A stretch of 64,000 bases of DNA, taken from Escherichia phage UPEC06. The translations under genes were made by a program, and so were the position numbers. The notes under the pieces are model-generated. The model was given only the letters and a program-made list of their open reading frames with translations, was not told the DNA's origin and searched no databases. How positions within the stretch are numbered: the stretch's first letter is position 1; each line of letters begins with the position of its first letter. Where the stretch lies: the sequence record MW250786; one strand, 5' to 3'. Positions 5,511 through 64,000 of the stretch are shown here, in pieces.

Positions 5511-5522
5511 GAGGAGAAAACT

Positions 5523-52474: not shown

Positions 52475-52532
52475 TTGACTGAAAGACTACAAAGAAGTAA
52501 GATAATTAACGAATAGGGGGAACATCTCCCCC
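52475..52532 (+). promoter_or_regulatory. promoter-stem-loop cassette (GTAGTTGACT-17-TAAGAT + GGGGGAACATCTCCCCC hairpin)
   Basis: As other cassettes; approx coords. Confidence 0.6.
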
Positions 52533-52558
52533 GTAAACAAAAGAAAGAGAGATTAAAA

Positions 52559-52741
52559 ATGACAGAACTGATTGCAACTACAAAGATCGAAGGCGTTAAC
52601 GATGTTACTTTGTCCTATGATCCTTCTACTCTGGTTTATGTTGTGAAATATGGCAGAATGATCGCAGAACTTGATTGCATTGATGAGGCTTTCGAAAAAT
52701 ATTTCGAACTTATCAATATTGCTTATGATGACTACCGTTAA
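52559..52741 (+). CDS. hypothetical protein
   Basis: 60-aa ORF after cassette. Confidence 0.45.
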   Translation: MTELIATTKIEGVNDVTLSYDPSTLVYVVKYGRMIAELDCIDEAFEKYFELINIAYDDYR

Positions 52742-52771
52742 CATACAACGCAAAAATAGAAAGGTGATAAA

Positions 52772-52981
52772 ATGATCAATGAAAAAACAATCAATGACGT
52801 TCGAGAGGAAGTTTTAGCCGTTGCCGTAGAATCTGGCGCACGTCAGGCATTTTGGAAAGCTACTGATCTTTACCCTGAACAAGCTGAAAATATTTTAAAC
52901 CAGGTCAGCGTTAAACTCGAAGAGATGGGCAAAGTCAAAACAAGTGAGCGCCTCGACCAAATCATTAAAGAAAGTTTTTGA
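52772..52981 (+). CDS. hypothetical protein
   Basis: 69-aa ORF with AAAGGTGA RBS. Confidence 0.45.
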   Translation: MINEKTINDVREEVLAVAVESGARQAFWKATDLYPEQAENILNQVSVKLEEMGKVKTSERLDQIIKESF

Positions 52982-53045
52982 TTGACTTTTAACATTGCCC
53001 CTATTAGTATTCAGGGGCAAGATTAAAAGAAACAAGGACACAAAG

Positions 53046-53357
53046 ATGAACGATATTGTTAGTATCATAGGTTTACTGGGTATAGGCTACGTCGCCACAT
53101 CAATTACGATGAGTTACTTCAATAAAAGGCGTGATAAAATGTTTTGTTACTTTGAATACCGTTACCGTGGTAAGGTTGGATCATCCCGTGACTATGGTCC
53201 GATGTTAGAGATTGATGCGGTTGGCGCTATGCAGTATCGCCAGTCACTAGGGGCTGAAATAATTTTTGAAGTGTACCGCAGTACAGAAGAAGAGATCCAC
53301 GACATTATTGACGAGCGTCAATATTACCACGAACAACAAACTAAACGCAGGGCTTAA
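53046..53357 (+). CDS. hypothetical membrane-anchored protein
   Basis: Start set to ATG 53046 (MNDIVS); N-terminal hydrophobic helix. Confidence 0.45.
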   Translation: MNDIVSIIGLLGIGYVATSITMSYFNKRRDKMFCYFEYRYRGKVGSSRDYGPMLEIDAVGAMQYRQSLGAEIIFEVYRSTEEEIHDIIDERQYYHEQQTKRRA

Positions 53358-53507
53358 CATATGACTAATACAAACCGACAAAAAATCATCAAAACTAAAA
53401 AACTTGATTTCAATACTTATCAAGAATGCAAGAAGAAAGTAAAAGAAAAGCGAGAGAACAAGCGGCACGAATGGATCACCAATACAATCGATCTTTAATA
53501 ACAATCT

Positions 53508-53531
53508 AAGCCCATTATGTGGGCTTTTTCT
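53508..53531 (+). terminator. Rho-independent terminator
   Basis: AAGCCCA-ttatg-TGGGCTT hairpin plus TTTTCTT. Confidence 0.6.
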
Positions 53532-53545
53532 TATGGAGAACAGAC

Positions 53546-53773
53546 ATGATTAATATTCTTTCACTGACAGAAGTGATCCGTTTCCTCAAAAACAACGCCC
53601 TGGGGACTTCTATAACGTATCTAATCCCGCAAGGTAAAGATTATGCCAGCGTTACACGTTCAATCACCGCTACGGCTTCCAGGGAAGAAATAAAGGTCAG
53701 CGTAAGCCAATTGTTGATTGTTGATCCATCATCTTGCGAGACTATCCAGGCGGTGAAGATAATTAGAAAATAA
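53546..53773 (+). CDS. hypothetical protein
   Basis: Start set to ATG 53546 (MINILS) after GGAGAA RBS. Confidence 0.45.
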   Translation: MINILSLTEVIRFLKNNALGTSITYLIPQGKDYASVTRSITATASREEIKVSVSQLLIVDPSSCETIQAVKIIRK

Positions 53774-53858
53774 TTTAAAAAACTTCTTGCATCCATTATT
53801 GAGGGGGTGTATATTAGTTTCATCAAGACGAGATAAAGATAACCCAAAGGTGATTATT

Positions 53859-54152
53859 ATGTTATACGAAGTTTTTGCTGGATTTTGTTTTTATGGTGCT
53901 GCCGCCGTTCGCCAGTGTGATGATTATGTGGTTGAGTCATTTGATGATCCTTTGGCGTGTGAGATTGTTACTACGGCATACGAGCAAGATCGCCGTTGGA
54001 TTAATCCGGCCTGTATCGCATCGCCTGAGGTTGAACCTATGCCGGAAGGTGAGGAATTAACAGAGGAAGACTTGCAAGAAGTAAAAGAAGTTATGAGCTA
54101 CATGATTGATAATCTGGACGCTGAAAACTTACAACGTGCATTGCAAAAATAA
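53859..54152 (+). CDS. hypothetical acidic protein
   Basis: Start set to ATG 53859 (MLYEVF) after AAAGGTGA RBS. Confidence 0.45.
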   Translation: MLYEVFAGFCFYGAAAVRQCDDYVVESFDDPLACEIVTTAYEQDRRWINPACIASPEVEPMPEGEELTEEDLQEVKEVMSYMIDNLDAENLQRALQK

Positions 54153-54165
54153 TTTGAAAAAGTAG

Positions 54166-54223
54166 TTGACTGAAAGCAACAAAACAAGTAAATTATTCAC
54201 ATCAGGCGGGGAATGGCCCCGCC
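54166..54223 (+). promoter_or_regulatory. promoter-stem-loop cassette (GTAGTTGACT-17-TAAATT + GGCGGGGAATGGCCCCGCC hairpin)
   Basis: Near-identical to the cassette at 52044; approx coords. Confidence 0.6.
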
Positions 54224-54238
54224 AAACAAAAAGAGATT

Positions 54239-54619
54239 ATGAAAATGGCTAAAAATACTAACGTTTGTGATTACGCTGACCTCGTTACTCTGAATGCAGA
54301 TTCTAAAATCAACTTGTCAGATGTGGAAGCGGTACACGTCCTGGCACGCCGTTGGTTCCAACAATCCTACGGTAATACATATTTTTCTTTAAGTGTAGAC
54401 GTGGAGATCGCTGGTAAATTGGTTGAAGTGGTTAGCGTGCCGTTCAAATATGGATATGGTGACCATTTCGATACCGTGGCACTGGAAGAATTTAGCAAGG
54501 TTATCAACCTGGAAGGAAAGGAGTTTTCAGAGTATAGTTACCTTTCCCGTTTTTGCCGTGACAATAACATCCCTGTTTATTCGAACGCTGTTGATGTTAA
54601 ACGCAAAAAAGATATGTGA
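54239..54619 (+). CDS. hypothetical protein
   Basis: 126-aa ORF after cassette (ATG 54239 or 54245). Confidence 0.5.
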   Translation: MKMAKNTNVCDYADLVTLNADSKINLSDVEAVHVLARRWFQQSYGNTYFSLSVDVEIAGKLVEVVSVPFKYGYGDHFDTVALEEFSKVINLEGKEFSEYSYLSRFCRDNNIPVYSNAVDVKRKKDM

Positions 54620-54706
54620 TTATTATTGACAGCACACAAAAAACAAGTAAATTGTATCACATAGAAAGCGGGAACACTTCCCGCTTATATCCTAAAGGTA
54701 AGAGAA

Positions 54707-54958
54707 ATGTTCGAACAAATCAAAACTACAACGGCTAACGTAACGGGTACAGTATCTCACTTCATTAGTGATGAATCGCGGGGCGTTCCTTATTGTGCGG
54801 TGCATGTAAACAAAAATGGCGACTACTGGTTAACGGCGTATGGATCTTATTCTTTCGGACGTAGTGCACACCAAAAGATCCTGGATAAAGTGCAGCCAAC
54901 GGGTAAAAATATTACCGCTGAAATGTTTAATAAATCACTTGCAAAGTTAAAAGCGTAA
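54707..54958 (+). CDS. hypothetical protein
   Basis: 83-aa ORF after TTGACA/TAAATT promoter and GCGGGAACACTTCCCGC hairpin. Confidence 0.5.
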   Translation: MFEQIKTTTANVTGTVSHFISDESRGVPYCAVHVNKNGDYWLTAYGSYSFGRSAHQKILDKVQPTGKNITAEMFNKSLAKLKA

Positions 54959-55259
54959 AGTATAATATATCACATCAGGCGGGGAGTGTTTCCCCGTCAC
55001 AAAATGAAAGGTTAACAAAATGAAAGCAAGCATGATGGTAGCGACTGTAAACATTATCATTGGTAACGGAACTGGACACCACGAAATCATAAAAAACAAG
55101 GCTTACTCTATTAGCTCCCTCAAAAACGACATGCGTTTATCTTTGGGCCAAATCCGCGCTTACTTTCGTGAAGGCTATCAGAAAAAAGTAGCAAATTAAT
55201 AGTTGACGCAAAGGTCATTTTAATTTAATCTATAACAAATCGACAAATGAGGCATAATC

Positions 55260-55562
55260 ATGTTTACCAAAGCAAATGAGTATTTCTTTTTAGATTCACT
55301 TGACGAAAGTATCTTTGTAGCTATGGGCAAAAAGTCAATGGTCTTTAAACGCAAAAAAGATAATGGTGACTTTGAAGATAGCGAAGCCGTGCTAACAGTC
55401 AAGGAAGGTAAAGAACCTGCTACGTCTGTTTTAATCTATACCTTGACCAACGGCGGTGAAGTTATCGCATCAGGTAGTAGCCATCCGATCCCAAAATCGG
55501 AAGTGAACACTGTAATTATTGGTTTTGTTGCAGCTTGTTTCTACGAGGAAAAAAGCAAATGA
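55260..55562 (+). CDS. hypothetical protein
   Basis: 100-aa ORF after TTGACG promoter-like site. Confidence 0.5.
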   Translation: MFTKANEYFFLDSLDESIFVAMGKKSMVFKRKKDNGDFEDSEAVLTVKEGKEPATSVLIYTLTNGGEVIASGSSHPIPKSEVNTVIIGFVAACFYEEKSK

Positions 55563-55723
55563 ATCCGCAAAATTTATCTTATGTAAATTGGCCCAATAAG
55601 GCTGAGAAGAAAGAAAACTTGAAACGTCTGGTTAACTTTTATCGTGAAGCTGATCATAGTAAAGTAACAGCGGTTAAAATGGCAAAGCGCCACCTTAACA
55701 AGCCAGGTACTAAACTAATTTAA
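55559..55723 (+). CDS. hypothetical small basic protein
   Basis: Start set to ATG 55559 (MNPQN), ATGA overlap with upstream stop. Confidence 0.4.
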   Translation: MNPQNLSYVNWPNKAEKKENLKRLVNFYREADHSKVTAVKMAKRHLNKPGTKLI

Positions 55724-55794
55724 AAACTTGTTGACGTTGGCTTGTGCCGTACCTATAATGGACGGCATAGGCAAACGAAATAGGATTTATAGAA

Positions 55795-56001
55795 ATGAAA
55801 AAGAAAATTGTATATAACTTTGTTAGCTTTATTGCGACTACCCTCCTGGCTATTGCAGGGCTATCTTTAATCGTCGCCGTAGGATCTTTGTTTCCTGGGG
55901 CAATAGGTATTAGCATAGCTTTCGCTGCATTGTCTGTTTTTACAGGCTATGCAGGGATTAAAGTTATTTACTGGTCAGAAGATTATAAATATTCAAACTA
56001 A
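55795..56001 (+). CDS. small two-TM membrane protein
   Basis: 68 aa, two hydrophobic helices; after TTGACG-N-TATAAT promoter. Confidence 0.5.
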   Translation: MKKKIVYNFVSFIATTLLAIAGLSLIVAVGSLFPGAIGISIAFAALSVFTGYAGIKVIYWSEDYKYSN

Positions 56002-56391
56002 ATTGAGGTGTAAGGTGTATAAATTATTGGCCTGGGAAACAGAATCATCGTCACCGATCAGCCGGACCTTTTTTGATTTGTGCACGGCTTACAAGCTGGC
56101 AAAGGGAGGATATCATAAGGCCCAGATCATTGATGAATTTAATGTTATCCTTTATGAATTTTAATTAATTCATGCACTTAAAAGAAAGTTATAAAAAGTT
56201 TTAAAAAGTAGTTGCAACAAACATTGGGTAGTAGTATAGTACTTTCAACGGGGCGAGATAGCCCAAAACGAAAAAACTTGAAAGGTGATTATCATGATGG
56301 CAATTTTCTTAGTTTCTCTTCTGGTCGCTGTATGTTCTGCCACTGCTGCCGCTGTACTTTACGATACACGTTACAATGAGGAATAATAAAA

Positions 56392-56610
56392 ATGAATATT
56401 GTCAACATTACAGGAAAAACTGAACTCCTTAAAAATCTTGCACCAGGTGAATCAACTGTATGGATCTGTAACAATGGAGAAGTAGAAAAACAGATGAGAT
56501 TGTTTACCGCCATTTGTTGTCGGCTGAATATGAAGGTCACACAAATCCGATCGATGATTGTTAGTGTGGGAAACATTCCGACTGAATGCATAATTCTTAC
56601 AAAGATTTAA
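56392..56610 (+). CDS. hypothetical protein
   Basis: 72-aa ORF. Confidence 0.45.
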   Translation: MNIVNITGKTELLKNLAPGESTVWICNNGEVEKQMRLFTAICCRLNMKVTQIRSMIVSVGNIPTECIILTKI

Positions 56611-56686
56611 AAATAGCTTTACAACAACGATAAAATCAGTACAATACAAATCAGGCAATAAAGCCGACTAAAGAAAGGTAAAGACC

Positions 56687-56926
56687 ATGCAAACTATTAT
56701 CACTAAATTTCTTCCTCCTACTAATACCCGTGGCGCTCGCATCAAAGCAAAATGTTGGTTGACAGATATCACTATCGCCTATCCGGTAGCCGAGATCAAC
56801 GAAGCCCATAAACTGGCGGCAGAAGTGTTAATTACAAAATTGAAGATGACAACAGATATTGATTGGAATATCGTTGCAAGCGGTGAAACACCGGACGGCA
56901 GCGGCTACGCTTTCATTATCAAATAA
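56687..56926 (+). CDS. hypothetical protein
   Basis: 79-aa ORF with RBS. Confidence 0.45.
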   Translation: MQTIITKFLPPTNTRGARIKAKCWLTDITIAYPVAEINEAHKLAAEVLITKLKMTTDIDWNIVASGETPDGSGYAFIIK

Positions 56927-56935
56927 TCATAAAGC

Positions 56936-56954
56936 GGCGGGAATAGTTCCCGCC
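56936..56954 (+). other. intercistronic leader stem-loop (GCGGGAA-tag-TTCCCGC) without promoter
   Basis: 8-bp GC-rich stem between stop of upstream ORF and RBS of next ORF; same family as promoter-linked hairpins. Confidence 0.5.
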
Positions 56955-56980
56955 TTATTAAAGAGAAAAGAGAAGATATC

Positions 56981-57259
56981 ATGACTATTACTAAATTATC
57001 CACCGAAGAGATCACCAACATTCTGACTACTAATCTTGGAGATTGGAAGCGTGAAGCTGATTTGCAAGCAACCTGTAAACTGAATACAGAGCTAACATCA
57101 GACGATATTGAAACGATCGTCCATGCTGATTTCTATGATGCTTTGCATGATGATTCTATCGTCCTTGAAACGTTGTTAGATAATGCCTGGATCAATCCCG
57201 ATTTGGCGGCGTATGGTCATAGCGCCTTTGTTACTATCCACAATATTTATAACCGTTAA
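56981..57259 (+). CDS. hypothetical protein, paralogue of 58733-59011 product
   Basis: MTITKLSTEEITNILTTNLGDWKREADLQ aligns with MTIAKLSAEEIEQVLTTNLEQWKREADIQ. Confidence 0.55.
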   Translation: MTITKLSTEEITNILTTNLGDWKREADLQATCKLNTELTSDDIETIVHADFYDALHDDSIVLETLLDNAWINPDLAAYGHSAFVTIHNIYNR

Positions 57260-57269
57260 GAGGTGATAA

Positions 57270-57533
57270 GTGGCCCTTTCAACAACAAATAAAGTAATTG
57301 GTGTTATCCCTGGGAGATCAATCAAGGTTGGCGATCTCATACGCTTACAAGTTGCTTCCTTTCCTGGTCCGGCTTATGATTTTTGTCATACCGTTGCGAT
57401 TCAAGAGAATCCGCATGATGTTAACCTCATGGTGATTTGGTACAAGCTGGCAAATGGTCAACTTTGCGAGGATATCATAGGGAAAGATGAGGCGTTCAAT
57501 ATTATGTACCAAAACGGCCCGCTAACGGCCTAA
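57270..57533 (+). CDS. hypothetical protein, paralogue of 59255-59482 product
   Basis: GTG start with AAGAGGTGA RBS; shared PxYDFC...VIWY...DIxGxDE pattern. Confidence 0.5.
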   Translation: MALSTTNKVIGVIPGRSIKVGDLIRLQVASFPGPAYDFCHTVAIQENPHDVNLMVIWYKLANGQLCEDIIGKDEAFNIMYQNGPLTA

Positions 57534-57630
57534 AACGGCGAAAGTATGCAATCACCTTACTTGATACTATTCTACGCCCTGGCTTATCCTGGGGCTTTTG
57601 ATTGGGGTAGAAAATAATTCGAAAAAGTAG

Positions 57631-57687
57631 TTGACGGCAATTAACACTATGGTAAAGTGTACCCCGTAGGGCGGCAATAGCGCCGCT
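57631..57687 (+). promoter_or_regulatory. promoter-stem-loop cassette (GTAGTTGACG + GGGCGGCAATAGCGCCGCT hairpin)
   Basis: As other cassettes; approx coords. Confidence 0.55.
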
Positions 57688-58045
57688 CACTGAAAAAGGG
57701 TAAAATCATGTTAGAAAAAATTTTCACGGTTGTAATCTTAGGTTTAACATTCTTTGTAGGAGTAACTGCAACGATGGCTAATATGATTTTATCTTTCAAT
57801 GGTATTGGTTAAGAGGAAACAACAAATGAAAACTTTCAACGCAACAGCCTCAACAATTGGCTATATTATTACAGTACAGGCCGTGGATCTGGTAGCGGCG
57901 GCAAACAAGATTAAAAAAATGATTCCGACAGATAGCAAATTTTCCGTATGGGAAGTCAAATAATCCTTGACAGTAATTTATTATCTGGTAAAGTCTATTA
58001 TGTAGGGCGGCAATAGTGCCGCTGATAACCGAAGAGAAACAACAA

Positions 58046-58219
58046 ATGATCCCAACTATCTTTTACATATCTCGCAAAGGCATCAACATCCATTGGATGG
58101 AAGATTTAGAGCAAGCTATAGAGTATGCCCGTGGTCGTGTCGCTATCGGCGGCGTAGATATCACCGTTACCGATGAGAACGGGATCGAGTATTATAACAG
58201 CGAAGAAGAAGACTACTAA
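58046..58219 (+). CDS. hypothetical small protein
   Basis: Start set to ATG 58046 (MIPTIF) after promoter, GGCGGCAATAGTGCCGC hairpin and RBS. Confidence 0.45.
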   Translation: MIPTIFYISRKGINIHWMEDLEQAIEYARGRVAIGGVDITVTDENGIEYYNSEEEDY

Positions 58220-58263
58220 TCAACAGGGCGGCAAGAATGCCGCCATATAAAGGAATAAATGAA

Positions 58264-58650
58264 ATGAAACAAGAAATCATCAATACAATTATCGACGGTT
58301 ACAAAGAAGCCTTTATTTTCGCTGAATCAGCAACGGATCAGTACGGGGAGCATATCGATAACCTTGATCCTTATGACTTCTCCCAGGACGCAAACGACCG
58401 GATCGCCCAGGATGTAACAGCCTTCATTAATGCCAATATCGCCGTTATATCTGAGGCAATGTCTGACGGTGCAACAGCGATCCAGATAGGGAATGATTTA
58501 CATCTTACACGCAACGGTCACGGCGTAGGATTTTGGGATCGTCCTGAGATATACACCACGGATACGGGTAACCGTTTGAGTAATGCCGCTAAATTAATGC
58601 CTAACGTGTCAGCTTACATTGGGAAAGATAATCTGATTTATATTGAATAA
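58264..58650 (+). CDS. hypothetical protein
   Basis: Start set to ATG 58264 (MKQEII) after RBS; track start 58237 lies in loop of hairpin GGGCGGCAAGAATGCCGCC. Confidence 0.45.
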   Translation: MKQEIINTIIDGYKEAFIFAESATDQYGEHIDNLDPYDFSQDANDRIAQDVTAFINANIAVISEAMSDGATAIQIGNDLHLTRNGHGVGFWDRPEIYTTDTGNRLSNAAKLMPNVSAYIGKDNLIYIE

Positions 58651-58656
58651 AAAGTA

Positions 58657-58712
58657 TTGACAAGCTGAATCAACCTGATAAGATGTATCACATAGGGGCG
58701 ACAAGCGCCCCG
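58657..58712 (+). promoter_or_regulatory. promoter-stem-loop cassette (TTGACA-16-TAAGAT + GGGGCGACAAGCGCCCC hairpin)
   Basis: As other cassettes; approx coords. Confidence 0.55.
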
Positions 58713-58732
58713 CCTAACAGAGAGATAGAATC

Positions 58733-59011
58733 ATGACCATCGCCAAATTATCCGCTGAAGAAATCGAACAAGTGTTAACTACTAACCTGGAACAATGGAA
58801 ACGTGAGGCAGATATACAATCAGCACAATGGCTTAACGAGAAGTTAACACCGGATGATCTGAGTAAGATTATAGATCCTCAATTCTATGAAGATATTCAC
58901 GACACGGCGTTATCCGTTGAGGATGTACTCGATAAGCATTACATTGCTACTGATTTGCAGGTTTACGGGCGTAAAAACTTTATTACTATTCACGACATTT
59001 ACAATAACTAA
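58733..59011 (+). CDS. hypothetical protein, paralogue of 56981-57259 product
   Basis: See 56981-57259. Confidence 0.55.
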   Translation: MTIAKLSAEEIEQVLTTNLEQWKREADIQSAQWLNEKLTPDDLSKIIDPQFYEDIHDTALSVEDVLDKHYIATDLQVYGRKNFITIHDIYNN

Positions 59012-59046
59012 GGGCGGCAACGCCCTACAACTAAAAGGGTAATATT

Positions 59047-59241
59047 ATGACGTTAGCAACATGTACCGGATCAAAAATTGCTTGCTTTGAGTTTATGGAA
59101 GACTACCACACGACCGCAATCACTAACCAATATATTACAGTGATCACGCGTGACGGTATCGCCTGGCATGTTCCGGTTTATGATGGGGATACCTATGAAG
59201 TCACCGATAGCGACGGCAATACAGCTATCTTTGTTGTCTAA
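59047..59241 (+). CDS. hypothetical protein
   Basis: 64-aa ORF after GGGCGGCAACGCCC hairpin and RBS. Confidence 0.45.
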   Translation: MTLATCTGSKIACFEFMEDYHTTAITNQYITVITRDGIAWHVPVYDGDTYEVTDSDGNTAIFVV

Positions 59242-59254
59242 GGGGGGAAACACT

Positions 59255-59482
59255 ATGCACAATAACATCATTACCGATCGTGCCGCTACTATGCGCCCTG
59301 GCGATCGGGCACGTTTACAGATCGGCGCTTATCCGTTCCCTACTTATGACTTTTGCAAAGTAACCGCTATCGAAAACAATCCGTTCGAACCTGATACCGT
59401 GATCGTATGGTATGAAGGAAGAGGTAATAAATTTGAAGACATTTTGGGGCGAGATGAGTTATTGAATATTCTACGTTATTAA
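59255..59482 (+). CDS. hypothetical protein, paralogue of 57270-57533 product
   Basis: Start set to ATG 59255 (MHNNII) after AAGGGGGG RBS. Confidence 0.5.
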   Translation: MHNNIITDRAATMRPGDRARLQIGAYPFPTYDFCKVTAIENNPFEPDTVIVWYEGRGNKFEDILGRDELLNILRY

Positions 59483-59600
59483 TCGCCGTCTAACAGCCTT
59501 AAGCCTGTTAAGCTATGCAACCCCCTACCTTGTCCAATCGTCGCGCCCTGGTTTATGCTGGGGCGTTCTACGTTACAGCAAAATAATTTTAAAAATACGC

Positions 59601-59659
59601 TTGACGCTCGCCAGGTGAGCGGGTATATTTTATCACGTAGGGCGGCAATAGTGCCGCTC
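59601..59659 (+). promoter_or_regulatory. promoter-stem-loop cassette (TTGACG-17-TATATT + GGGCGGCAATAGTGCCGCT hairpin)
   Basis: As other cassettes; approx coords. Confidence 0.6.
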
Positions 59660-59679
59660 ACTGAAAAAGGTAAATCAGC

Positions 59680-59871
59680 ATGAAAACTATCACCTATCTG
59701 GAATCGAATAATAAATTTTTTGCCCCTGTTGATGAAATCATCGAAGCCCTGGCAAACGGTGAGGGTGTAAATGGCTTGCCTCATGCTCAATTAGTCGGAC
59801 TTGTCAAGGCAAACAAAGAATTAGCCTACTATGTAGAAAACTTTGAAACAGCAGTTATATTTACAAAATAA
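59680..59871 (+). CDS. hypothetical protein
   Basis: 63-aa ORF after cassette. Confidence 0.45.
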   Translation: MKTITYLESNNKFFAPVDEIIEALANGEGVNGLPHAQLVGLVKANKELAYYVENFETAVIFTK

Positions 59872-59951
59872 AGGTTGTATTCATTCCGCAACTGGTTTAT
59901 ATTATTTGTGTAGGGCGGCAATAGTGCCGCTCACTGACTGGAGCTATCATT

Positions 59952-60353
59952 ATGGCCTTTACAATCACCTCTTACACTGACGTTGCCAACATTGCTAAAA
60001 CTTTCGGCCCTGAAGCCCTTAAGTATGCGGTATCCAATGGTAAACTAACGAAAGAGCAATGTTACCTGATTGGAAGCTGTAAACGTTGGGCGGCATCTCG
60101 TAACATCGAGATTGAAAACGTAAATGATGGTAACATCGAGTATAGCGTTGATGCAGTATTCAAGGCCGTGTATTTGGGCGGTATCTATAATACCAACCTT
60201 AATGATGTGCGTATCGTTCGCACTGGTTTTGGGGCTTATGATGTTCCAGTTCGCGAAGCTATGGAAAAAGGTTATATTAATCCAGCTATTTTAAGTATGA
60301 TCATGACTGAGGCCAAAGAACGTAACGAAGTACGGGCCATCCTGGGCCTGTAA
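59952..60353 (+). CDS. hypothetical protein
   Basis: 133-aa ORF after GTAGGGCGGCAATAGTGCCGCTCACTGA element. Confidence 0.5.
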   Translation: MAFTITSYTDVANIAKTFGPEALKYAVSNGKLTKEQCYLIGSCKRWAASRNIEIENVNDGNIEYSVDAVFKAVYLGGIYNTNLNDVRIVRTGFGAYDVPVREAMEKGYINPAILSMIMTEAKERNEVRAILGL

Positions 60354-60451
60354 TGAAATATTAACAGAAAACTATTGACACGGATCGTCAATATGCTAAT
60401 ATTTATCACGTAGGGCGGCAATGGTGCAGCCCACTGGAAAAGGTAAAAATC

Positions 60452-60697
60452 ATGTACCAGACAACTAAAATTGGCAATATCTATCACGATCCTAAAAACT
60501 CACGCGGTACAGCCTGGATCAAGATGCCCAACAACGTTTGGTACTATGCATTAAAAGGCAATACCTTGATGGGCAATCGTTGGAAGTGGATTAAAGAAAA
60601 TAACAACATTATTAACGATGAAAAAATCCAAGAAATGGTAGCAACGGGTAAGGTTGTAATGCAAGAAAACACCGACCGCCTTACTCGTCAATTTTAA
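60452..60697 (+). CDS. hypothetical protein
   Basis: 81-aa ORF after TTGACA promoter and degenerate hairpin. Confidence 0.45.
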   Translation: MYQTTKIGNIYHDPKNSRGTAWIKMPNNVWYYALKGNTLMGNRWKWIKENNNIINDEKIQEMVATGKVVMQENTDRLTRQF

Positions 60698-60706
60698 TAT
60701 CAATAA

Positions 60707-60722
60707 GGGGCGGCAACGCCCC
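60707..60722 (+). other. intercistronic stem-loop with GNRA-type loop (GGGGCG-GCAA-CGCCCC)
   Basis: 6-bp GC stem, GCAA tetraloop, between ORFs and upstream of RBS. Confidence 0.5.
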
Positions 60723-60745
60723 ACCTCGACCAAAGAGAAACAATA

Positions 60746-60952
60746 ATGAGTATTGCAGCGATTAGCTCATCCGACATTAAAAAGGCTTTATCTGTGTTGC
60801 GCTATCACCACCACAGGAAAGTAATCAACGATGAGAGCTATCTAGATTCATCGTTAGAAAGCGATACGTTGGAAGCCATTTCAAAATTATCCGATTTACA
60901 TAAACGCATGACCGAAAGCAACCGATCCGACTTCATAGGGGGCGAAATATGA
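60746..60952 (+). CDS. hypothetical protein
   Basis: 68-aa ORF. Confidence 0.45.
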   Translation: MSIAAISSSDIKKALSVLRYHHHRKVINDESYLDSSLESDTLEAISKLSDLHKRMTESNRSDFIGGEI

Positions 60953-61209
60953 GCATTGCAATGTTAATTAATGCGGTAGAAGAGGCAAAAGCATTAAAGC
61001 TATGTGTTGAACTGATTGATCAACCAGGCGGCGATCTCCTTGTCCAAATTTATCCCCAAAAGGATTATTCTGGCGCTTATAGTTGGTGCTACTCTGACAC
61101 GTTCGGACAAGTAGACATTAAAGCAATAACATCGTTTATCAACAGGGCCATACTTGAGCAAACGATAGAGATTAACGGAATGTTAAAAACACCCTGGCAC
61201 ATTTACTAA
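60949..61209 (+). CDS. hypothetical protein
   Basis: 86-aa ORF, ATGA overlap. Confidence 0.45.
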   Translation: MSIAMLINAVEEAKALKLCVELIDQPGGDLLVQIYPQKDYSGAYSWCYSDTFGQVDIKAITSFINRAILEQTIEINGMLKTPWHIY

Positions 61210-61216
61210 GTTCGAT

Positions 61217-61246
61217 AAAAGGGCTTGACTTGTTCGGCCCTTTTTT
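61217..61246 (+). terminator. Rho-independent terminator
   Basis: AGGGC-loop-GCCCT stem followed by TTTTTT. Confidence 0.55.
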
Positions 61247-61385
61247 GCTATTCTTATCAAACGGGCGGCAACTGGGGACAGGGGAAGGTAATCACCGGAA
61301 GACTTTGGCATATACTGATAGTAAATAACTATTAATACTCACCAAAAATAAAATAAAATTTATTAAATCTTTACAATTCTACGTA

Positions 61386-61680
61386 TTGACACCGGATCAC
61401 CGTTATATTATTATTTATCTCGTAGGGCAGCGAAGCAGTGATGCAAAGTAGTTACTCTATGATGTAAGTTCTGAGAAGTCGAATCCGATAAAGTATCAGA
61501 AAGTTTCTAAGTTTTCGAATCGTCCAGATGAAAAAGGCTGGCAAGTGTTGAGAAAGGGCACGTTGAGTAAGTCCCGAAAAGGGGCGCTCTTAGACACCTT
61601 CTACTGAGATTGCGATCAAAGTGTTAAACTGTGAGAAACAAAAAGAGTACCAGGAAAGAAAAAAAAAAGTTAAAAAGATT
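61386..61680 (+). other. promoter-driven non-coding leader / candidate small RNA locus
   Basis: TTGACA-N17-TATTAT promoter-like pair, then ~250 nt with no ORF above ~10 codons before the next promoter at ~61684. Confidence 0.3.
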
Positions 61681-61755
61681 ATTGACACAAAAGTAAGTTT
61701 TGTACTATTATCTATCTCGTAGGGCAAACATTCAAAACATTAAAAAGGGTACAAA

Positions 61756-62031
61756 ATGTTACAGCTTAACGCTAAATTAGACAAAGAAATCACTGAGTTT
61801 TGGGATATGGTAGTAGCTACAGATGTAGACGGTGTAGCAAGTCCTTACCTCAATAACATCGAGTATCACAATGTTGCAGCTATGAATGCAGAATATGCAG
61901 AAGAAGGCGGCGCGGATAAGTTTGCTAAAAGCAACGGTTTCACTGATGCTAATGATATGATGCAATCAGTATTGTGGCAAGCCCAGGAAGATTTTGAAGA
62001 AAAAACACTTGAATTCGCCAGACGTTCATAA
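61756..62031 (+). CDS. hypothetical acidic protein
   Basis: 91-aa ORF after TTGACA-N-TATTAT promoter-like pair. Confidence 0.5.
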   Translation: MLQLNAKLDKEITEFWDMVVATDVDGVASPYLNNIEYHNVAAMNAEYAEEGGADKFAKSNGFTDANDMMQSVLWQAQEDFEEKTLEFARRS

Positions 62032-62086
62032 TAGAATAATCAAACGGGCCGAGAGGCCCACTAACTGACCTAACAGGATTAATATC

Positions 62087-62356
62087 ATGAATCGCATCGA
62101 TCAGCTTAAAGTAGTTCAGCATATGGCTTACCGTATCCTTGAAGTCCAGAAGGGTAGCAAAAAAGAAGTATGCGAGAAAGCGTACAAGGTATTCAGCCAT
62201 AAATCTGACGATTGGAAATTACAGAAAGTTAAAAAGGCCGATATCCTGGGCTACCTTGAGGATGAGATCCGCCTTGCGGAGCAAAAACAGATTCGTCGTG
62301 ATGAGGCAGAACATAACCAGGCCTGGCAGGAGTGGTTTAAAGGGTATACTAAGTAA
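62087..62356 (+). CDS. hypothetical protein
   Basis: 89-aa ORF with RBS. Confidence 0.5.
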   Translation: MNRIDQLKVVQHMAYRILEVQKGSKKEVCEKAYKVFSHKSDDWKLQKVKKADILGYLEDEIRLAEQKQIRRDEAEHNQAWQEWFKGYTK

Positions 62357-62487
62357 TACTAAAACAGGGGCCATATGGCCCCTTTGTAAATATCCAATTA
62401 ATTTACAATTCTCCCTATTGACAGGCTAGTCAGTTTTGCACTATAGTTAAGTTCCTGGCAGCAAACAACAAAACAAAGGACAACAGC

Positions 62488-62907
62488 ATGAACATCAAAT
62501 CAAATAATCCGGCATACTCTTTCGATAACGCTTTTTGTCACGGTAGCGCCGCCAAAGGTTTTGAAATTGATGGTAAACTGGTTATCGTCAATGTTGATGG
62601 GGAAGAGGTTGCAGTTTATCCAGTGGCAGACGTTAAAAGCCGTTTACAGTGCCGCATGGACGTTAACGAATATCGCCTTGATCCGGTTCGTGTAGTTGCC
62701 TTAGTCCTGGAAGAAGAAATTAAAGCAATGCAGCATAGCAACAAGTTTATCGGTGATGCACAGGACAACATGAAAGTAAGCCGCCACAAAGTTAATGAAG
62801 CACTGAAAGATTTTGGCTTTAAAGACCTAGTTATTAAACGTGATGAAAAATTCCGCTTTCGTAATGATCTGGCAAATCGCTACTATGAAATCTATGAAGC
62901 ACTTTAA
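62488..62907 (+). CDS. hypothetical protein
   Basis: 139-aa ORF after TTGACA promoter-like site. Confidence 0.5.
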   Translation: MNIKSNNPAYSFDNAFCHGSAAKGFEIDGKLVIVNVDGEEVAVYPVADVKSRLQCRMDVNEYRLDPVRVVALVLEEEIKAMQHSNKFIGDAQDNMKVSRHKVNEALKDFGFKDLVIKRDEKFRFRNDLANRYYEIYEAL

Positions 62908-62920
62908 GAGGTAAGACAAC

Positions 62921-62947
62921 AAAGGGCCGCTATTGCGGCCTTTATTA
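62921..62947 (+). terminator. Rho-independent terminator ending the small-ORF array
   Basis: AAAGGGCCGC-tatt-GCGGCCTTT hairpin plus TTTATTAT. Confidence 0.65.
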
Positions 62948-63151
62948 TATCCATCGGCGTGACTCTCCCAACTCTATTAATCCCCTCCCTCATTTGGATC
63001 ATCCTACTCTATCCAACCCTTCTAACTTACTTTACCCATCAATCTAATCAGCTTCCTGAATCTCTCCTATAAAAATCAAAACTAACCTGATAGCTTACCA
63101 CAACAAAACACACAAAGAAAGAACTATTTTGCCCACAAAGAAAGCAGTTTT

Positions 63152-63790
63152 AAAGAGATACCATTGCCAGAGTATGGAGGTGGCGCGACCGTAGGGAGCG
63201 ACACTATAAAACGAGTATACCCCTCCTACCGCTATGCGGTCATCGGTGATAACCGATAACATACTGTTATCTGTTCTCTTCGTTTCCTCGTTTTATAGTG
63301 TCTACTTATAGTAATCTTTTATCCTTTGTCAATACATTATCGAAGATAATATTGAATTATTTAATGCTTTGTTAGTAATTATTTATGCATGGATACTGAT
63401 TATGTATGCAATAAGGATGCAATGGGAAGGCCGTTAGTGTGACCACACAAAGAGGCTGTAGGGTACACAAAGAGGCCGTAAAAGGCTGTATTTGCCCACA
63501 GAATGAACAAGTAAGCAGGGCGGTACGCCAGTTTGCTAGACAAAACTCTCTTCTCTCTTCTCTCCCCAAATAAATTTTTTCTTGCTTTTATTGCCAGAGT
63601 ATGGCGGGGCGCTCAGGCTATTGATGGCCCTGATGGAGTCGCTCCTGCACAGTTGGGATAGTTCATCGTTGGATAGTCACAAGTTGGTATTATTCTTCCC
63701 ACTAGTTGGAACAGGCCAGAACTGGCGGGGCTTGGAGTCGCTCCACTTGTTGGGCGGAAGAAGGGCGCTTGCAGTGCGTATAAGTTGTAT
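63152..63790. repeat. dispersed imperfect repeats in terminal non-coding region
   Basis: ATTGCCAGAGTATGG at ~63152 and ~63590 with a variant GCCAGAACTGGCGGGG at ~63713; GGAGTCGCTCC x2; CACAAAGAGGCYGTA x2 at ~63445-63480. Confidence 0.4.
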
Positions 63791-64000
63791 TATGTTAAAT
63801 GCAGATCGAAATCGGTATTCTAAATCAGATTCAGAAGTCAATAGAAATCTTTAACTTTATTGTTGGGGTAGCACAACATTTTTCTTGACAAGTCGAATCA
63901 AAGATGTATTGCGGATTGAAAATAAATGAAGATAATGCTTGACTTCTTGGATATTTTGAAAACATCGGACCCCCTCTCCCTCCCCCACGGTCGCCGTGCC

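What the first reader, a model, noticed from the sequence alone, without database searches (positions are those of the whole stretch)
62948..64000. About 1 kb terminal non-coding region with dispersed repeats after the last terminator
After the strong terminator at ~62921-62947 I see no convincing ORF; the two track ORFs here (63372-63569 and 63582-63854) lack RBSs and sit in repeat sequence. The region holds ATTGCCAGAGTATGG twice (~63152 and ~63590) with a related copy (~63713), GGAGTCGCTCC twice, CACAAAGAGGCYGTA twice and an odd GC/pyrimidine-rich end (CCCCCTCTCCCTCCCCC). It could be a packaging site, a genome-terminus-proximal repeat, a regulatory region or a structured RNA.
Basis: seen in the sequence. 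Interest (0 to 1): 0.4.

Follow-up and report, generated by a model that had tools for sequence, protein, structure and literature searches.

The report
Phage genome end with packaging signals
This gene-free kilobase is the right-hand end of the DNA molecule that an rV5-like E. coli phage packs into its head; it carries the conserved repeats, a palindrome and the cut site used to cut and package genomes, which is an ordinary feature of this phage group, though not yet described for this genus.

Summary
Window 62948-64000 has no conserved ORF; both "track ORFs" are broken in relatives. Its repeats are real and locally significant. The window comes from a Septuagintavirus (Vequintavirinae). The region is the left ~60% of a 1.75-2.5 kb gene-free gap between converging gene blocks, just downstream of a 139-aa gene conserved in Vequintavirus, Phapecoctavirus and Septuagintavirus. 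In the other two genera this gap holds the physical genome ends: an exact 329-bp direct terminal repeat in Schickermooser and an annotated 459-bp repeat in Gotham. Five further records begin or end at the same two boundaries. The window's last base aligns in register with that right boundary. It reads ...GCCGTGCC| followed in relatives by TGGCAGC, against ...GTCCGCC|TGGCAGC in bov11CS3, and all three genera have a GATATTT box 50-52 nt inside the end. So the region is the right terminal non-coding DNA of the packaged genome. It ends in a short terminal repeat whose left edge is unresolved (about 63866-63869 or about 63610-63622). It also holds a palindromic element that is 99% conserved within the genus and whose arms changed together between genera, 20-bp iterons, and strand-specific short-repeat arrays flanking the end as in T7. 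This is a new member of a known kind, of modest interest.

The parts
62488..62907 (+). Last gene before the end. It encodes a 139-aa protein (homolog of rV5 gp159 and phAPEC8_0017), the conserved landmark that precedes the terminus gap in three genera.
   Evidence: tblastn gave 142 phage records at 86-99% aa identity. A gene-free gap follows the gene in rV5, phAPEC8 and LTH01.
62924..62947 (+). Intrinsic terminator of the rightward gene block: GGGCCGC-TATT-GCGGCC followed by TTTATTAT.
   Evidence: Read directly. The stem was also detected by the scan on the opposite strand. It is conserved in all relatives and duplicated in those that carry an extra 65-aa gene.
62948..63110 (+). G-poor spacer (6% G), rich in C, T and A, moderately variable with indels.
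   Evidence: Composition. Conservation is 61-93% per 30-nt bin. The 37-aa ORF here is frameshifted or stopped in relatives.
63111..63180 (+). Short direct repeats CACAAAGAAAG x2 (63111, 63134) and TTTGCCCACA (63128), then repeat R copy 1, ATTGCCAGAGTATGGAGG (63163-63180).
   Evidence: The stretch is invariant in 9 phages. rV5 has an analogous 20-nt repeat, ATGCAAACGAATGGCATGGC, on both sides of its palindrome.
63182..63302 (.). Palindromic element. It starts with GGCGCGAC...GCGAC, then a perfect 16-bp inverted repeat (63200-63215 / 63287-63302) enclosing three small hairpins (63229-63239, 63242-63257, and a variable apex at 63255-63271).
   Evidence: Repeat search and folds (z about -3.3 on both strands). 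The core is 99.1% identical among relatives, against 94-97% for neighbouring genes. The apex exists in three self-complementary versions. rV5 has a homologous 18-bp perfect repeat in which 3 substitutions and a 2-nt indel are mirrored in both arms.
63303..63444 (.). AT-rich (72% A+T), indel-rich variable stretch.
   Evidence: Composition. Conservation falls to 27% at 63388-63417.
63445..63500 (+). Iteron-like 20-bp tandem units ACACAAAGAGGCYGTA(nnnn), with 2 to 3 copies depending on the phage, followed by the second TTTGCCCACA.
   Evidence: copy number differs: LTH01 has 3, window 2 plus a partial, A7_1 1. rV5 has an analogous array of 16-nt GTRAACAGT units just left of its terminal repeat.
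63548..63607 (+). Polypyrimidine tract CTCTTCTCTCTTCTCTCCCC, a T-run, and repeat R copy 2, ATTGCCAGAGTATGGCGG (63590-63607). This is an invariant block.
   Evidence: Two independent assemblies break here: the A73 original contig ends and the Logan contig of this same phage, which stops at 63622.
63634..63760 (+). G/T-rich array. It holds TGGAGTCGCTCC x2 (63634, 63733), a degenerate R copy (63715-63731) and five same-strand GTTGG motifs (63652, 63668, 63683, 63705, 63749).
   Evidence: (0 of 200 shuffles reach the cluster). GGAG/CTCC changes to GAGG/CCTC in four relatives.
63770..64000 (+). Conserved terminal block, all or part of which is the inferred direct terminal repeat. It contains GTATTATGTTAAAT (63787-63800), a sixth GTTGG (63862), a 3-4-nt hypervariable spot (63866-63869), the bracket motif GCACAACATTTT (63871-63882), a sigma70-like promoter TTGACA-N16-TATTGC (63885-63912), the GATATTTTGAAA box (63950-63961) and a C-tract (63970-63986).
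   Evidence: 96.5% identity among relatives. The 14-mer is shared with the rV5 terminal repeat at a similar distance from the end. The 12-mer occurs once in 64 kb and, in relatives, only in this gap. The promoter scores 10/12 in LTH01. The box lies 51, 50 and 52 nt from the end in the window, Gotham and Schickermooser.
63986..64000 (+). Predicted right physical end of the packaged genome, ...CACGGTCGCCGTGCC|. In concatemers and in relatives the next bases are TGGCAGCAGT.
   Evidence: The position is in register with the ends of Gotham (annotated 459-bp repeat), bov11CS3 and YN3, which read ...CGTCCGCC|(T/A)GGCAGC. All 8 relatives continue TGGCA(G/A)CAGT.

Best explanation
The region is the right-terminal non-coding DNA of a linear phage genome with short direct terminal repeats. 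It is not a gene and not junk.

The phage is a Septuagintavirus (rV5-like, Vequintavirinae). After the last rightward gene and its terminator come about 1.05 kb of protein-free DNA that end at window base 64000. That base is where the terminase makes the right-end cut in the replicating concatemer. The last roughly 130-390 bp are inferred to be the terminal repeat that is also present at the other genome end.

The DNA to the left of the repeat carries:
- a highly conserved palindromic element;
- 20-bp iterons;
- a same-strand GTTGG array.

The DNA to the right of the cut is seen only in relatives. It carries a TTTGG array and more copies of the GCACAACATTTT motif.

The proposed mechanism is inferred by analogy with T7-type phages. 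Packaging proteins recognise the repeat arrays and boxes that flank the repeat and cut at two fixed sites. The single repeat copy present between genomes in the concatemer is duplicated by DNA synthesis, and the palindrome is a candidate for a hairpin intermediate of the T7 kind.

What is shown: the absence of genes, the conservation pattern, the positional homology to verified ends in two related genera, and the coincidence with the window end.

What is inferred: the presence and length of the repeat in this phage, and the roles of the individual motifs.
For: 1. Identity and context. The closest records are Septuagintavirus phages A7_1, A5-4, A73, LTH01 and W70. The region lies between converging gene blocks.

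2. Conserved landmark. The 139-aa gene just upstream is 86-91% identical in Vequintavirus and Phapecoctavirus. In each genus it is followed by a gene-free gap: 2.6 kb in rV5, 1.5 kb in phAPEC8, 1.75 kb in LTH01. The rV5 paper drew this gap as a 'non-coding' box.

3. Verified ends lie in that gap.
   - Schickermooser has an exact 329-bp repeat at both record ends, starting about 930 nt after the gene. A 328-bp repeat is reported in PMC6563267.
   - bov11CS3 and YN3 end at the same right boundary, ECP2303 and Aya at the left boundary, and Mt1B1_P17 at the Phapecoctavirus right boundary.

4. The window's last base is in register with that right boundary.
   - The window ends ...GCCGTGCC| and relatives continue TGGCAGC, against ...GTCCGCC|TGGCAGC in bov11CS3.
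   - A GATATTT box lies 51, 50 and 52 nt from the end in the three genera.
   - The best local alignments of the end contexts fall at offsets 0-1.

5. No conserved ORF, no tRNA, no Rfam match.

6. Conservation. The palindrome block is 99.1% identical and the terminal block 96.5%, against 94-97% for flanking genes, with hypervariable stretches in between.

7. Flanking arrays are significant. The motif RYACAACAKTTT occurs only in this gap, on one strand, on both sides of the end.

8. The palindrome's arms changed together between genera.

9. Literature. Stephanstirmvirinae members 'terminate with direct terminal repeats'. The terminase large subunit of a Septuagintavirus clusters inside Vequintavirinae. 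A hairpin end forms near the T7 repeat.
Against: - No reads were analysed, and only one genome end is in the window. The terminal repeat of this phage was therefore not observed, and its left edge is unresolved. Sequence analogy points to 63866-63869. Two assembly breaks and the shared 14-mer point to about 63610-63622.
- End-context alignments between genera are not significant by score (23 against a shuffle mean of 20-21, maximum 33-34). The argument rests on register and on short shared words chosen after looking.
- None of the five Septuagintavirus GenBank records starts or ends here, and three metagenomic contigs run straight through the gap. That fits a collapsed repeat, but it also fits a permuted genome.
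- Contig breaks in the gap are scattered: 63245, 63402, about 63609 and 63622.
- Within the genus the alignment-fold tool found no covariation: all 41 pairs are invariant.
- That the window end equals the record end is an inference.
Confidence: 0.75

Rival explanations
1. The region, or its left half, is an origin of replication. In this reading the 20-bp iterons next to an AT-rich unwinding stretch and a palindrome bind an initiator. This does not exclude the terminus reading, and both functions could share the gap.
For: Iterons with variable copy number lie at 63445-63490. The adjacent 63303-63444 stretch is 72% A+T. A strongly conserved palindrome lies next to it. rV5 has an analogous array of 16-nt units. 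The rV5 authors looked for an origin by skew analysis and found a switch in this gap.
Against: The skew switch coincides with the change in transcription direction, as the rV5 paper itself says (window profile). No initiator gene or DnaA boxes were identified. The AT-rich stretch is the least conserved part of the region. The iterons sit immediately next to the terminal repeat in rV5, which fits packaging signals equally well.
Confidence: 0.25
2. The conserved blocks encode one or more non-coding RNAs, for example a structured RNA formed by the 63182-63302 palindrome or a transcript from the 63885 promoter.
For: The fold is more stable than shuffles (z -3.25; rV5 counterpart z -7.9). The apex hairpin exists in three self-complementary versions. 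The arms changed together between genera. A sigma70-like promoter lies in the terminal block.
Against: No Rfam family matches in any of the three genera. The opposite strand folds equally well, as expected for a DNA palindrome. No promoter or terminator frames the palindrome. The G/T-rich arrays have no complementary partner. Within the genus there is no covariation in the consensus structure. The -10 hexamer of the only good promoter is weakened in this phage (TATTGC).
Confidence: 0.1
3. The region is only a buffer between converging transcription units, made of decayed gene remnants, with no sequence-specific role. In this reading the genome is circularly permuted, as first stated for rV5, and the match to the window end is a coincidence or a depositor's convention.
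For: The rV5 paper called the genome circularly permuted. Septuagintavirus records are not cut here. Parts of the gap are hypervariable and take insertions, including an HNH gene in W70 and an extra small gene in four relatives.
Against: Blocks are as conserved as, or more conserved than, the flanking genes. Motif arrays are significant and strand-specific. The terminal repeats in Gotham and Schickermooser are exact or annotated, and five further records use the same boundaries. A random window end would hit the homologous base with a chance of about 1 in 10^5.
Confidence: 0.07

Closest known systems
Terminal-repeat region of Vequintavirus phages (rV5 'non-coding' box; vB_EcoM_Gotham 459-bp repeat, MT682716)
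   Same: - The landmark gene upstream is the same (86-88% aa).
- The gene-free gap lies between converging gene blocks.
- The end context is the same: a GATATTT box about 50 nt inside, then ...GCC|(T/A)GGCAGC.
- A 14-mer, GTATTATGTTAAAT, is shared about 200 nt inside the end.
- The palindrome is homologous, with a GGCGCGAC lead-in and flanking direct repeats.
- Iteron-type arrays lie left of the repeat and G/T-rich arrays lie right of it.
   Different: - There is no alignable nucleotide similarity overall: blastn finds only the five Septuagintavirus records.
- The gap is 1.75 kb here against 2.6 kb in rV5.
- The repeat units differ: GTTGG and ACACAAAGAGGC here, TGTCA and GTRAACAGT in rV5.
- The length of the repeat is not known here.
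Terminal-repeat region of Phapecoctavirus (Schickermooser 329-bp repeat; phAPEC8 5512-7022)
   Same: - The upstream gene is the same (about 90% aa).
- A gene-free gap follows it.
- The repeat starts about 0.9 kb after the terminator.
- A GATATTTGGGAA box lies 52 nt from the right end.
- The left boundary is preceded by ATGTTG and followed by AGCA, like window 63859-63873.
   Different: - The genes beyond the gap run in the same direction, not converging.
- The gap sequence is unrelated and very A-rich.
- The inverted repeats found there differ, and no counterpart of the 16/18-bp palindrome was seen.
T7/T3 concatemer junction (short terminal repeat flanked by the short-repeat arrays SRL and SRR; hairpin end intermediate)
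   Same: - A short direct terminal repeat with fixed ends.
- Arrays of short same-strand repeats immediately flanking it.
- A promoter close to the repeat.
- An inverted repeat near the right end that could form a hairpin.

The hairpin work of Chung, Nardone and Hinkle 1990 is cited in PMC11482910 and PMC4281155. The SRL/SRR arrays are from my own knowledge of Dunn and Studier 1983.
   Different: - The virus is an unrelated myovirus of about 140 kb.
- There is no sequence similarity.
- Host-type rather than phage-polymerase promoters are present.
- The palindrome lies about 560-700 nt from the end.
- None of the mechanistic steps has been tested in rV5-like phages.

Membership tests
Genome ends with short direct terminal repeats (fixed-end, T7-type packaging) | The same sequence is present at both ends of virion DNA. 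| not testable with these tools
   Only one end lies in the window. The start of the source record and the reads are not available. The Logan contig of the same phage stops at 63622.
Genome ends with short direct terminal repeats (fixed-end, T7-type packaging) | Ends lie at a fixed, conserved position rather than being permuted. | tested here: met
   The window end is in register with the right boundary used by Gotham, bov11CS3 and YN3, and with that of Schickermooser and Mt1B1_P17. This is support by homology, not direct observation in this phage.
Genome ends with short direct terminal repeats (fixed-end, T7-type packaging) | A twofold read-coverage segment bounded by read-start pile-ups. | not testable with these tools
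   No read mapping is available. SRR16019202 is identified as the relevant run.
Genome ends with short direct terminal repeats (fixed-end, T7-type packaging) | Terminase of the same clade as phages with proven repeats. | not tested
   Literature only: the terminase large subunit of Septuagintavirus KEC4 clusters within Vequintavirinae.
Genome ends with short direct terminal repeats (fixed-end, T7-type packaging) | Arrays of short repeats flank the terminal repeat (as SRL and SRR do in T7). | tested here: met
   A GTTGG array lies left of the end and a TTTGG array lies right of it (in relatives). Both are reached by 0 of 200 shuffles. The bracket motif lies on both sides.
Terminus gap of rV5-like phages (Vequintavirinae and Stephanstirmvirinae) | The gap lies directly downstream of the gp159 / phAPEC8_0017 homolog and its terminator. 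| tested here: met
Terminus gap of rV5-like phages (Vequintavirinae and Stephanstirmvirinae) | The gap is 1.5 kb or more with no conserved ORF. | tested here: met
   The gap is 1.75-2.5 kb in nine Septuagintavirus sequences. ORFs are broken in relatives.
Terminus gap of rV5-like phages (Vequintavirinae and Stephanstirmvirinae) | A GATATTT box lies about 50 nt inside the right end. | tested here: met
   The box lies 51 nt (window), 50 nt (Gotham) and 52 nt (Schickermooser) from the end.
Terminus gap of rV5-like phages (Vequintavirinae and Stephanstirmvirinae) | A long perfect inverted repeat with a GGCGCGAC lead-in lies between two copies of a direct repeat. | tested here: met
   Met against Vequintavirus. 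No counterpart was found in Phapecoctavirus.
Any described RNA family (Rfam 15) | A covariance-model match at E of 1 or below. | tested here: not met
   Zero matches in window 61000-64000 and in the complete gaps of LTH01, rV5 and phAPEC8. No tRNA or tmRNA.
Iteron-type replication origin | Tandem iterons lie next to an AT-rich stretch. | tested here: met
   Two to three units of 20 bp lie at 63445-63490 and a 72% A+T stretch at 63303-63444. This is necessary but not sufficient.
Iteron-type replication origin | Initiator binding or initiation of replication at the site. | not testable with these tools
   An experiment is needed.

The most novel reading that the evidence does not exclude
The palindromic element (63182-63302) and the flanking repeat arrays could form a dedicated concatemer-processing module, conserved in architecture across rV5-like myoviruses. 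In this reading the palindrome extrudes as a hairpin that primes duplication of the terminal repeat, as proposed but never settled for T7. The strand-specific GTTGG, TTTGG and GCACAACATTTT motifs would be the binding sites of the packaging proteins. This would give a second, unrelated and genetically tractable system in which to test the hairpin model of terminal-repeat duplication.
Probability: 0.2. Interest if true: 0.5.

Novelty: new member of a known kind. Interest (0 to 1): 0.3.

Why it matters
- **Orienting genomes.** Knowing where the physical ends lie lets the genomes of this recently named genus be oriented and compared correctly. All five public Septuagintavirus records are cut elsewhere, and one carries an assembly artefact in this very region.
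- **Engineering.** The result marks a stretch of DNA that must be kept intact when these therapeutic-candidate coliphages are engineered.
- **Mechanism.** The same architecture recurs in three genera with almost no sequence identity: landmark gene, palindrome, iterons, repeat, flanking arrays. That pattern identifies the features most likely to be recognised by the packaging machinery of rV5-like phages, for which no packaging signal has been defined.

Tried and rejected
- **Rfam and tRNA.** Rfam scans of the window end and of the complete gaps of three genera, and a tRNA scan, found nothing.
- **Collection scans.** Exact-word scans of the viral and metagenome contig collections with invariant words from the terminal block found no contigs.
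- **Sequence beyond 64000.** I tried to recover this phage's own sequence past the window end from run SRR16019202. The only contig found stops at 63622. Look-ups with far-side proteins of relatives returned other phages only.
- **Contig ends as terminus markers.** This approach was rejected. Breaks are scattered at 63245, 63402, about 63609 and 63622, and three contigs run through the gap.
- **A73 duplication.** The 55-nt duplication plus 54-nt insert first looked biological. It is an assembly artefact: the insert is an inverted copy of a gene fragment 4 kb away.
- **W70 gene numbering.** The restart in W70 gene numbering falls at the duplicated terminator, so it says nothing about the ends.
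- **Whole-sequence motif counts.** Counts of 7-mers were uninformative. Local cluster tests replaced them.
- **End-context alignment scores.** Scores are not above shuffles. Only the register is informative.
- **Covariation within the genus.** There is none, because the element is invariant.
- **Conservation claim.** My first impression that the terminal block is more conserved than coding DNA was wrong: it is 96.5% against 94-97%. Only the palindrome block (99.1%) exceeds the genes.
- **PhageMaP paper.** Its Bas63 is a Felixounavirus, so it is not relevant.
Full report
**The observation**

The finding region was read directly.
- The terminator GGGCCGC-TATT-GCGGCC lies at 62924-62940, followed by a T-rich tail.
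- ATTGCCAGAGTATGG occurs at 63163 (not about 63152) and at 63590, with a degenerate copy at 63715.
- TGGAGTCGCTCC occurs at 63634 and 63733.
- ACACAAAGAGGCYGTA occurs at 63445 and 63465.
- The C-rich tract lies at 63970-63986.

The most notable are a perfect 16-bp inverted repeat (63200-63215 / 63287-63302) and five same-strand GTTGG motifs within 98 nt. The GTTGG cluster is not reached by any of 200 dinucleotide shuffles of the window.

The 90-aa + ORF is stopped or frameshifted in LTH01, A5-4 and A73. The 65-aa - ORF is broken in four of five relatives. There is no tRNA and no Rfam match at E of 1 or below.

**Where the window comes from**

Megablast and blastn against phage records find the non-coding part in only five records: A7_1, A5-4, A73, LTH01 and W70, at about 87% identity. 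These phages form the recently named genus Septuagintavirus in Vequintavirinae (PMC11370258 and PMC12942863).

In these records the + strand genes end at the homolog of the window's 139-aa gene, and - strand genes converge from the other side. This leaves 1.75-2.5 kb without credible genes. The window stops about 60% of the way through this gap.

A Logan contig from run SRR16019202 is 100% identical to window 52488-63622, so that run sequenced this very phage. Three further metagenome-assembled relatives were recovered, giving nine sequences in all.

**The gap is a conserved feature that holds the genome ends**

The 139-aa protein is 86-91% identical in Vequintavirus (rV5 gp159) and Phapecoctavirus (phAPEC8_0017). 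A gene-free gap follows it in both:
- 2.6 kb in rV5, drawn as a "non-coding" box in the 2013 rV5 paper, which assumed a circularly permuted genome.
- 1.5 kb in phAPEC8.

Many records of both genera start or stop 1-1.6 kb from this gene. I checked these directly:
- Schickermooser carries an exact 329-bp repeat at both record ends, starting about 930 nt after the gene. Korf et al. report 328 bp.
- Gotham has an annotated 459-bp repeat, and its announcement states that packaging of all virions starts at the same sequence. The repeat maps to rV5 L011 5607-6065.
- bov11CS3 and YN3 end at the same right boundary, ...CGTCCGCC|.
- ECP2303 and Aya end at the left boundary, ...GTCA|.
- Mt1B1_P17 ends at the Phapecoctavirus right boundary.

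A 2025 paper states that Stephanstirmvirinae genomes end in direct terminal repeats.

**The window end is the homologous right terminus**

The window ends ...GATATTTTGAAAACATCGGACCCCCTCTCCCTCCCCCACGGTCGCCGTGCC. All eight relatives continue TGGCA(G/A)CAGT. In bov11CS3 the junction reads ...GTCCGCC|TGGCAGC, and in rV5 it reads |AGGCAGC.

A GATATTT(T/G)RRAA box starts 51, 50 and 52 nt before the end in the window, Gotham and Schickermooser. The best local alignments of 220-nt end contexts are weak in score (23 against a shuffle mean of 20-21). They nevertheless fall at offset 0-1 relative to the terminus in two independent comparisons.

A random 64-kb cut would hit this base with a probability of about 1 in 10^5. 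I therefore infer that the source record ends at the physical end and that the window is its last 64 kb. This is an inference. I could not see the record.

**Anatomy, from left to right** (coordinates; conservation)

1. Terminator (62924-62947).
2. A G-poor spacer with only 6% G, moderately variable (62948-63110).
3. Short repeats and repeat R copy 1 (63111-63180).
4. A palindromic element (63182-63302). Its core (63118-63237) is 99.1% identical among relatives, against 94-97% for the three neighbouring genes.
5. An AT-rich, indel-rich stretch (63303-63444).
6. 20-bp iterons whose copy number varies from one to three (63445-63490).
7. A polypyrimidine tract and R copy 2 (63548-63607).
8. A G/T-rich array containing the GGAGTCGCTCC hairpins and the GTTGG motifs (63634-63760).
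9. A terminal block that is 96.5% identical (63770-64000).

Beyond the end, conservation lasts about 20 nt and then collapses. W70 has an HNH_3 gene inserted 10 nt past the end. After that comes an array of 11 TTTGG motifs in 506 nt, reached by 0 of 200 shuffles, and then the terminator of the converging genes.

The 12-mer RYACAACAKTTT occurs once in the whole window (63871-63882). In every relative it occurs only in this gap and always on the same strand: one copy about 130 nt inside the end and two or three copies 500-575 nt beyond it.

**The palindrome**

The element folds into a 16-bp stem enclosing three small hairpins, with z about -3.3 on either strand. rV5 has a larger counterpart with an 18-bp perfect stem and z of -7.9. 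That counterpart is also essentially invariant among six Vequintavirus sequences, apart from an indel at the apex.

Between genera the left arm and its GGCGCGAC lead-in are alignable. Three substitutions and a 2-nt indel are mirrored exactly in the right arm, so the repeat stays perfect in both genera.

Within the genus the tool finds no covariation because all 41 pairs are invariant. The only variable part, the apex, exists in three versions that each fold as a hairpin.

The symmetry itself is therefore under selection. Whether it acts as a DNA hairpin or cruciform, as a pair of inverted protein sites, or as RNA cannot be decided here. Equal folding of both strands, the lack of a framing promoter or terminator and the absence of Rfam hits make RNA the least likely.

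**The terminal repeat in this phage**

Its presence is inferred from relatives. Its left edge is unresolved, and there are two candidates.

*Candidate A: 63866-63869 (repeat of about 132-135 bp).*
- The context ATTGTTGG[3-4 variable nt]AGCACAACATTTTTCTTGACAAGT resembles the left boundaries ATTGTGTCA|GACAAGTTTTTCT...TTGTCAAGT in rV5 and ATGTTG|AGCACC in phAPEC8.
- It follows the last GTTGG.
- It sits at the only hypervariable spot in the block.
- It is followed by a sigma70-like promoter, as in rV5.

*Candidate B: about 63610-63622 (repeat of about 380-390 bp, within the 329-459 bp range of relatives).*
- The Logan contig of this phage ends at 63622, and the original contig ends of A73 lie at about 63609.
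- The 14-mer GTATTATGTTAAAT lies 214 nt from the end here. The same 14-mer lies 183 nt from the end inside the rV5 repeat.

Other contigs break elsewhere or not at all, so the assembly evidence is weak.

**Mechanism**

I commit to the following reading, at about 0.75 for the terminus reading as a whole. The region is the right-terminal non-coding DNA of a genome packaged from concatemers by cuts at two fixed sites. Base 64000 is the right cut.

The flanking same-strand arrays, the GATATTT box and the bracket motif are the likely recognition elements. This parallels the short-repeat arrays that flank the T7 terminal repeat (my own knowledge of Dunn and Studier 1983).

The palindrome is a candidate for the kind of hairpin end described on T7 concatemers (Chung, Nardone and Hinkle 1990, cited). 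An origin of replication in the iteron and AT-rich part is a compatible rival, at about 0.25.

**Novelty**

The gap was noticed in rV5 in 2013. Terminal repeats were reported for single members of the two sister genera. I found no statement about ends for Septuagintavirus and no description of the shared architecture. The finding is a new member of a known kind. It is useful for orienting and engineering these genomes, and it offers a modest lead on packaging signals.

Noticed in passing
L007 4138-4620 (W70); the insertion starts 10 nt past the position equivalent to window 64000: W70 carries an HNH_3 (PF13392) homing-endonuclease-type ORF inserted almost exactly at the predicted genome end (...GTGCC|TGGCAGCAGT|ATCGATAC...). 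The other eight phages lack it.
   Followed up: partly
L002 4509-4820, L003 4509-4830, L007 2659-2970, L008 2649-2970; absent at window 62908-62920: Four GenBank relatives and one metagenomic contig have an extra 65-aa gene plus a second copy of the GGGCCGC-N4-GCGGCC terminator right after the 139-aa gene. The window, LTH01 and two contigs lack it. This is a small gene cassette gained or lost between duplicated terminators.
   Followed up: partly
L003 5497-5556 (A73, OP778609.1 about 86558-86617); equivalent to window about 63556-63609: The A73 GenBank record contains an assembly artefact: an exact 55-nt duplication (k-mer overlap of the original contig ends) around a 54-nt inverted copy of a fragment of its own WD40-repeat gene (L003 9762-9815). 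Two small ORFs are annotated on it.
   Followed up: yes
window 62488-62907: The 139-aa hypothetical protein is 86-91% identical across two subfamilies and is always the last gene before the terminus gap. This is unusually conserved for a small gene in a region of variable small genes. Its function is unknown, and one record labels it 'DNA translocase' without visible basis.
   Followed up: no
one search hit list (e.g. MG065690, MG065655, OP562383): Thirteen records named Campylobacter phage, plus single Acinetobacter and Pseudomonas phage records, carry this coliphage gene at 86-91% identity with rV5-like genome sizes. They are probably mislabelled or contaminating coliphages.
   Followed up: no
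window 63907-63912: The -10 hexamer of the sigma70-like promoter in the terminal block is TATTGC in this phage, but TATTGT in seven relatives and TATTGG in one. This phage therefore lacks the usually invariant final T.
   Followed up: no
window 63622; also 63245 (L028) and 63402 (L034): Logan contigs of this phage and of relatives stop at several different places inside the gap. The stops lie at the G-rich GGCGGGGCGC, inside the palindrome, and in the AT-rich stretch. Three other contigs pass through. The cause is unknown (coverage, secondary structure or population variants).
   Followed up: partly
L018 4363-7861, L020 3068-7737 (far side of the gap, outside the window): Three to four tandem paralogous genes of about 380-400 aa with WD40_RLD / RCC1-like repeats lie 2.5-7 kb beyond the terminus. 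Their copy number differs between relatives.
   Followed up: no
window 62944-62971, - strand: A good sigma70-like match (TTGGGA-N16-TATAAT, 10/12) points leftward into the terminator and the 3' end of the 139-aa gene. It may be a chance match or an antisense promoter.
   Followed up: no
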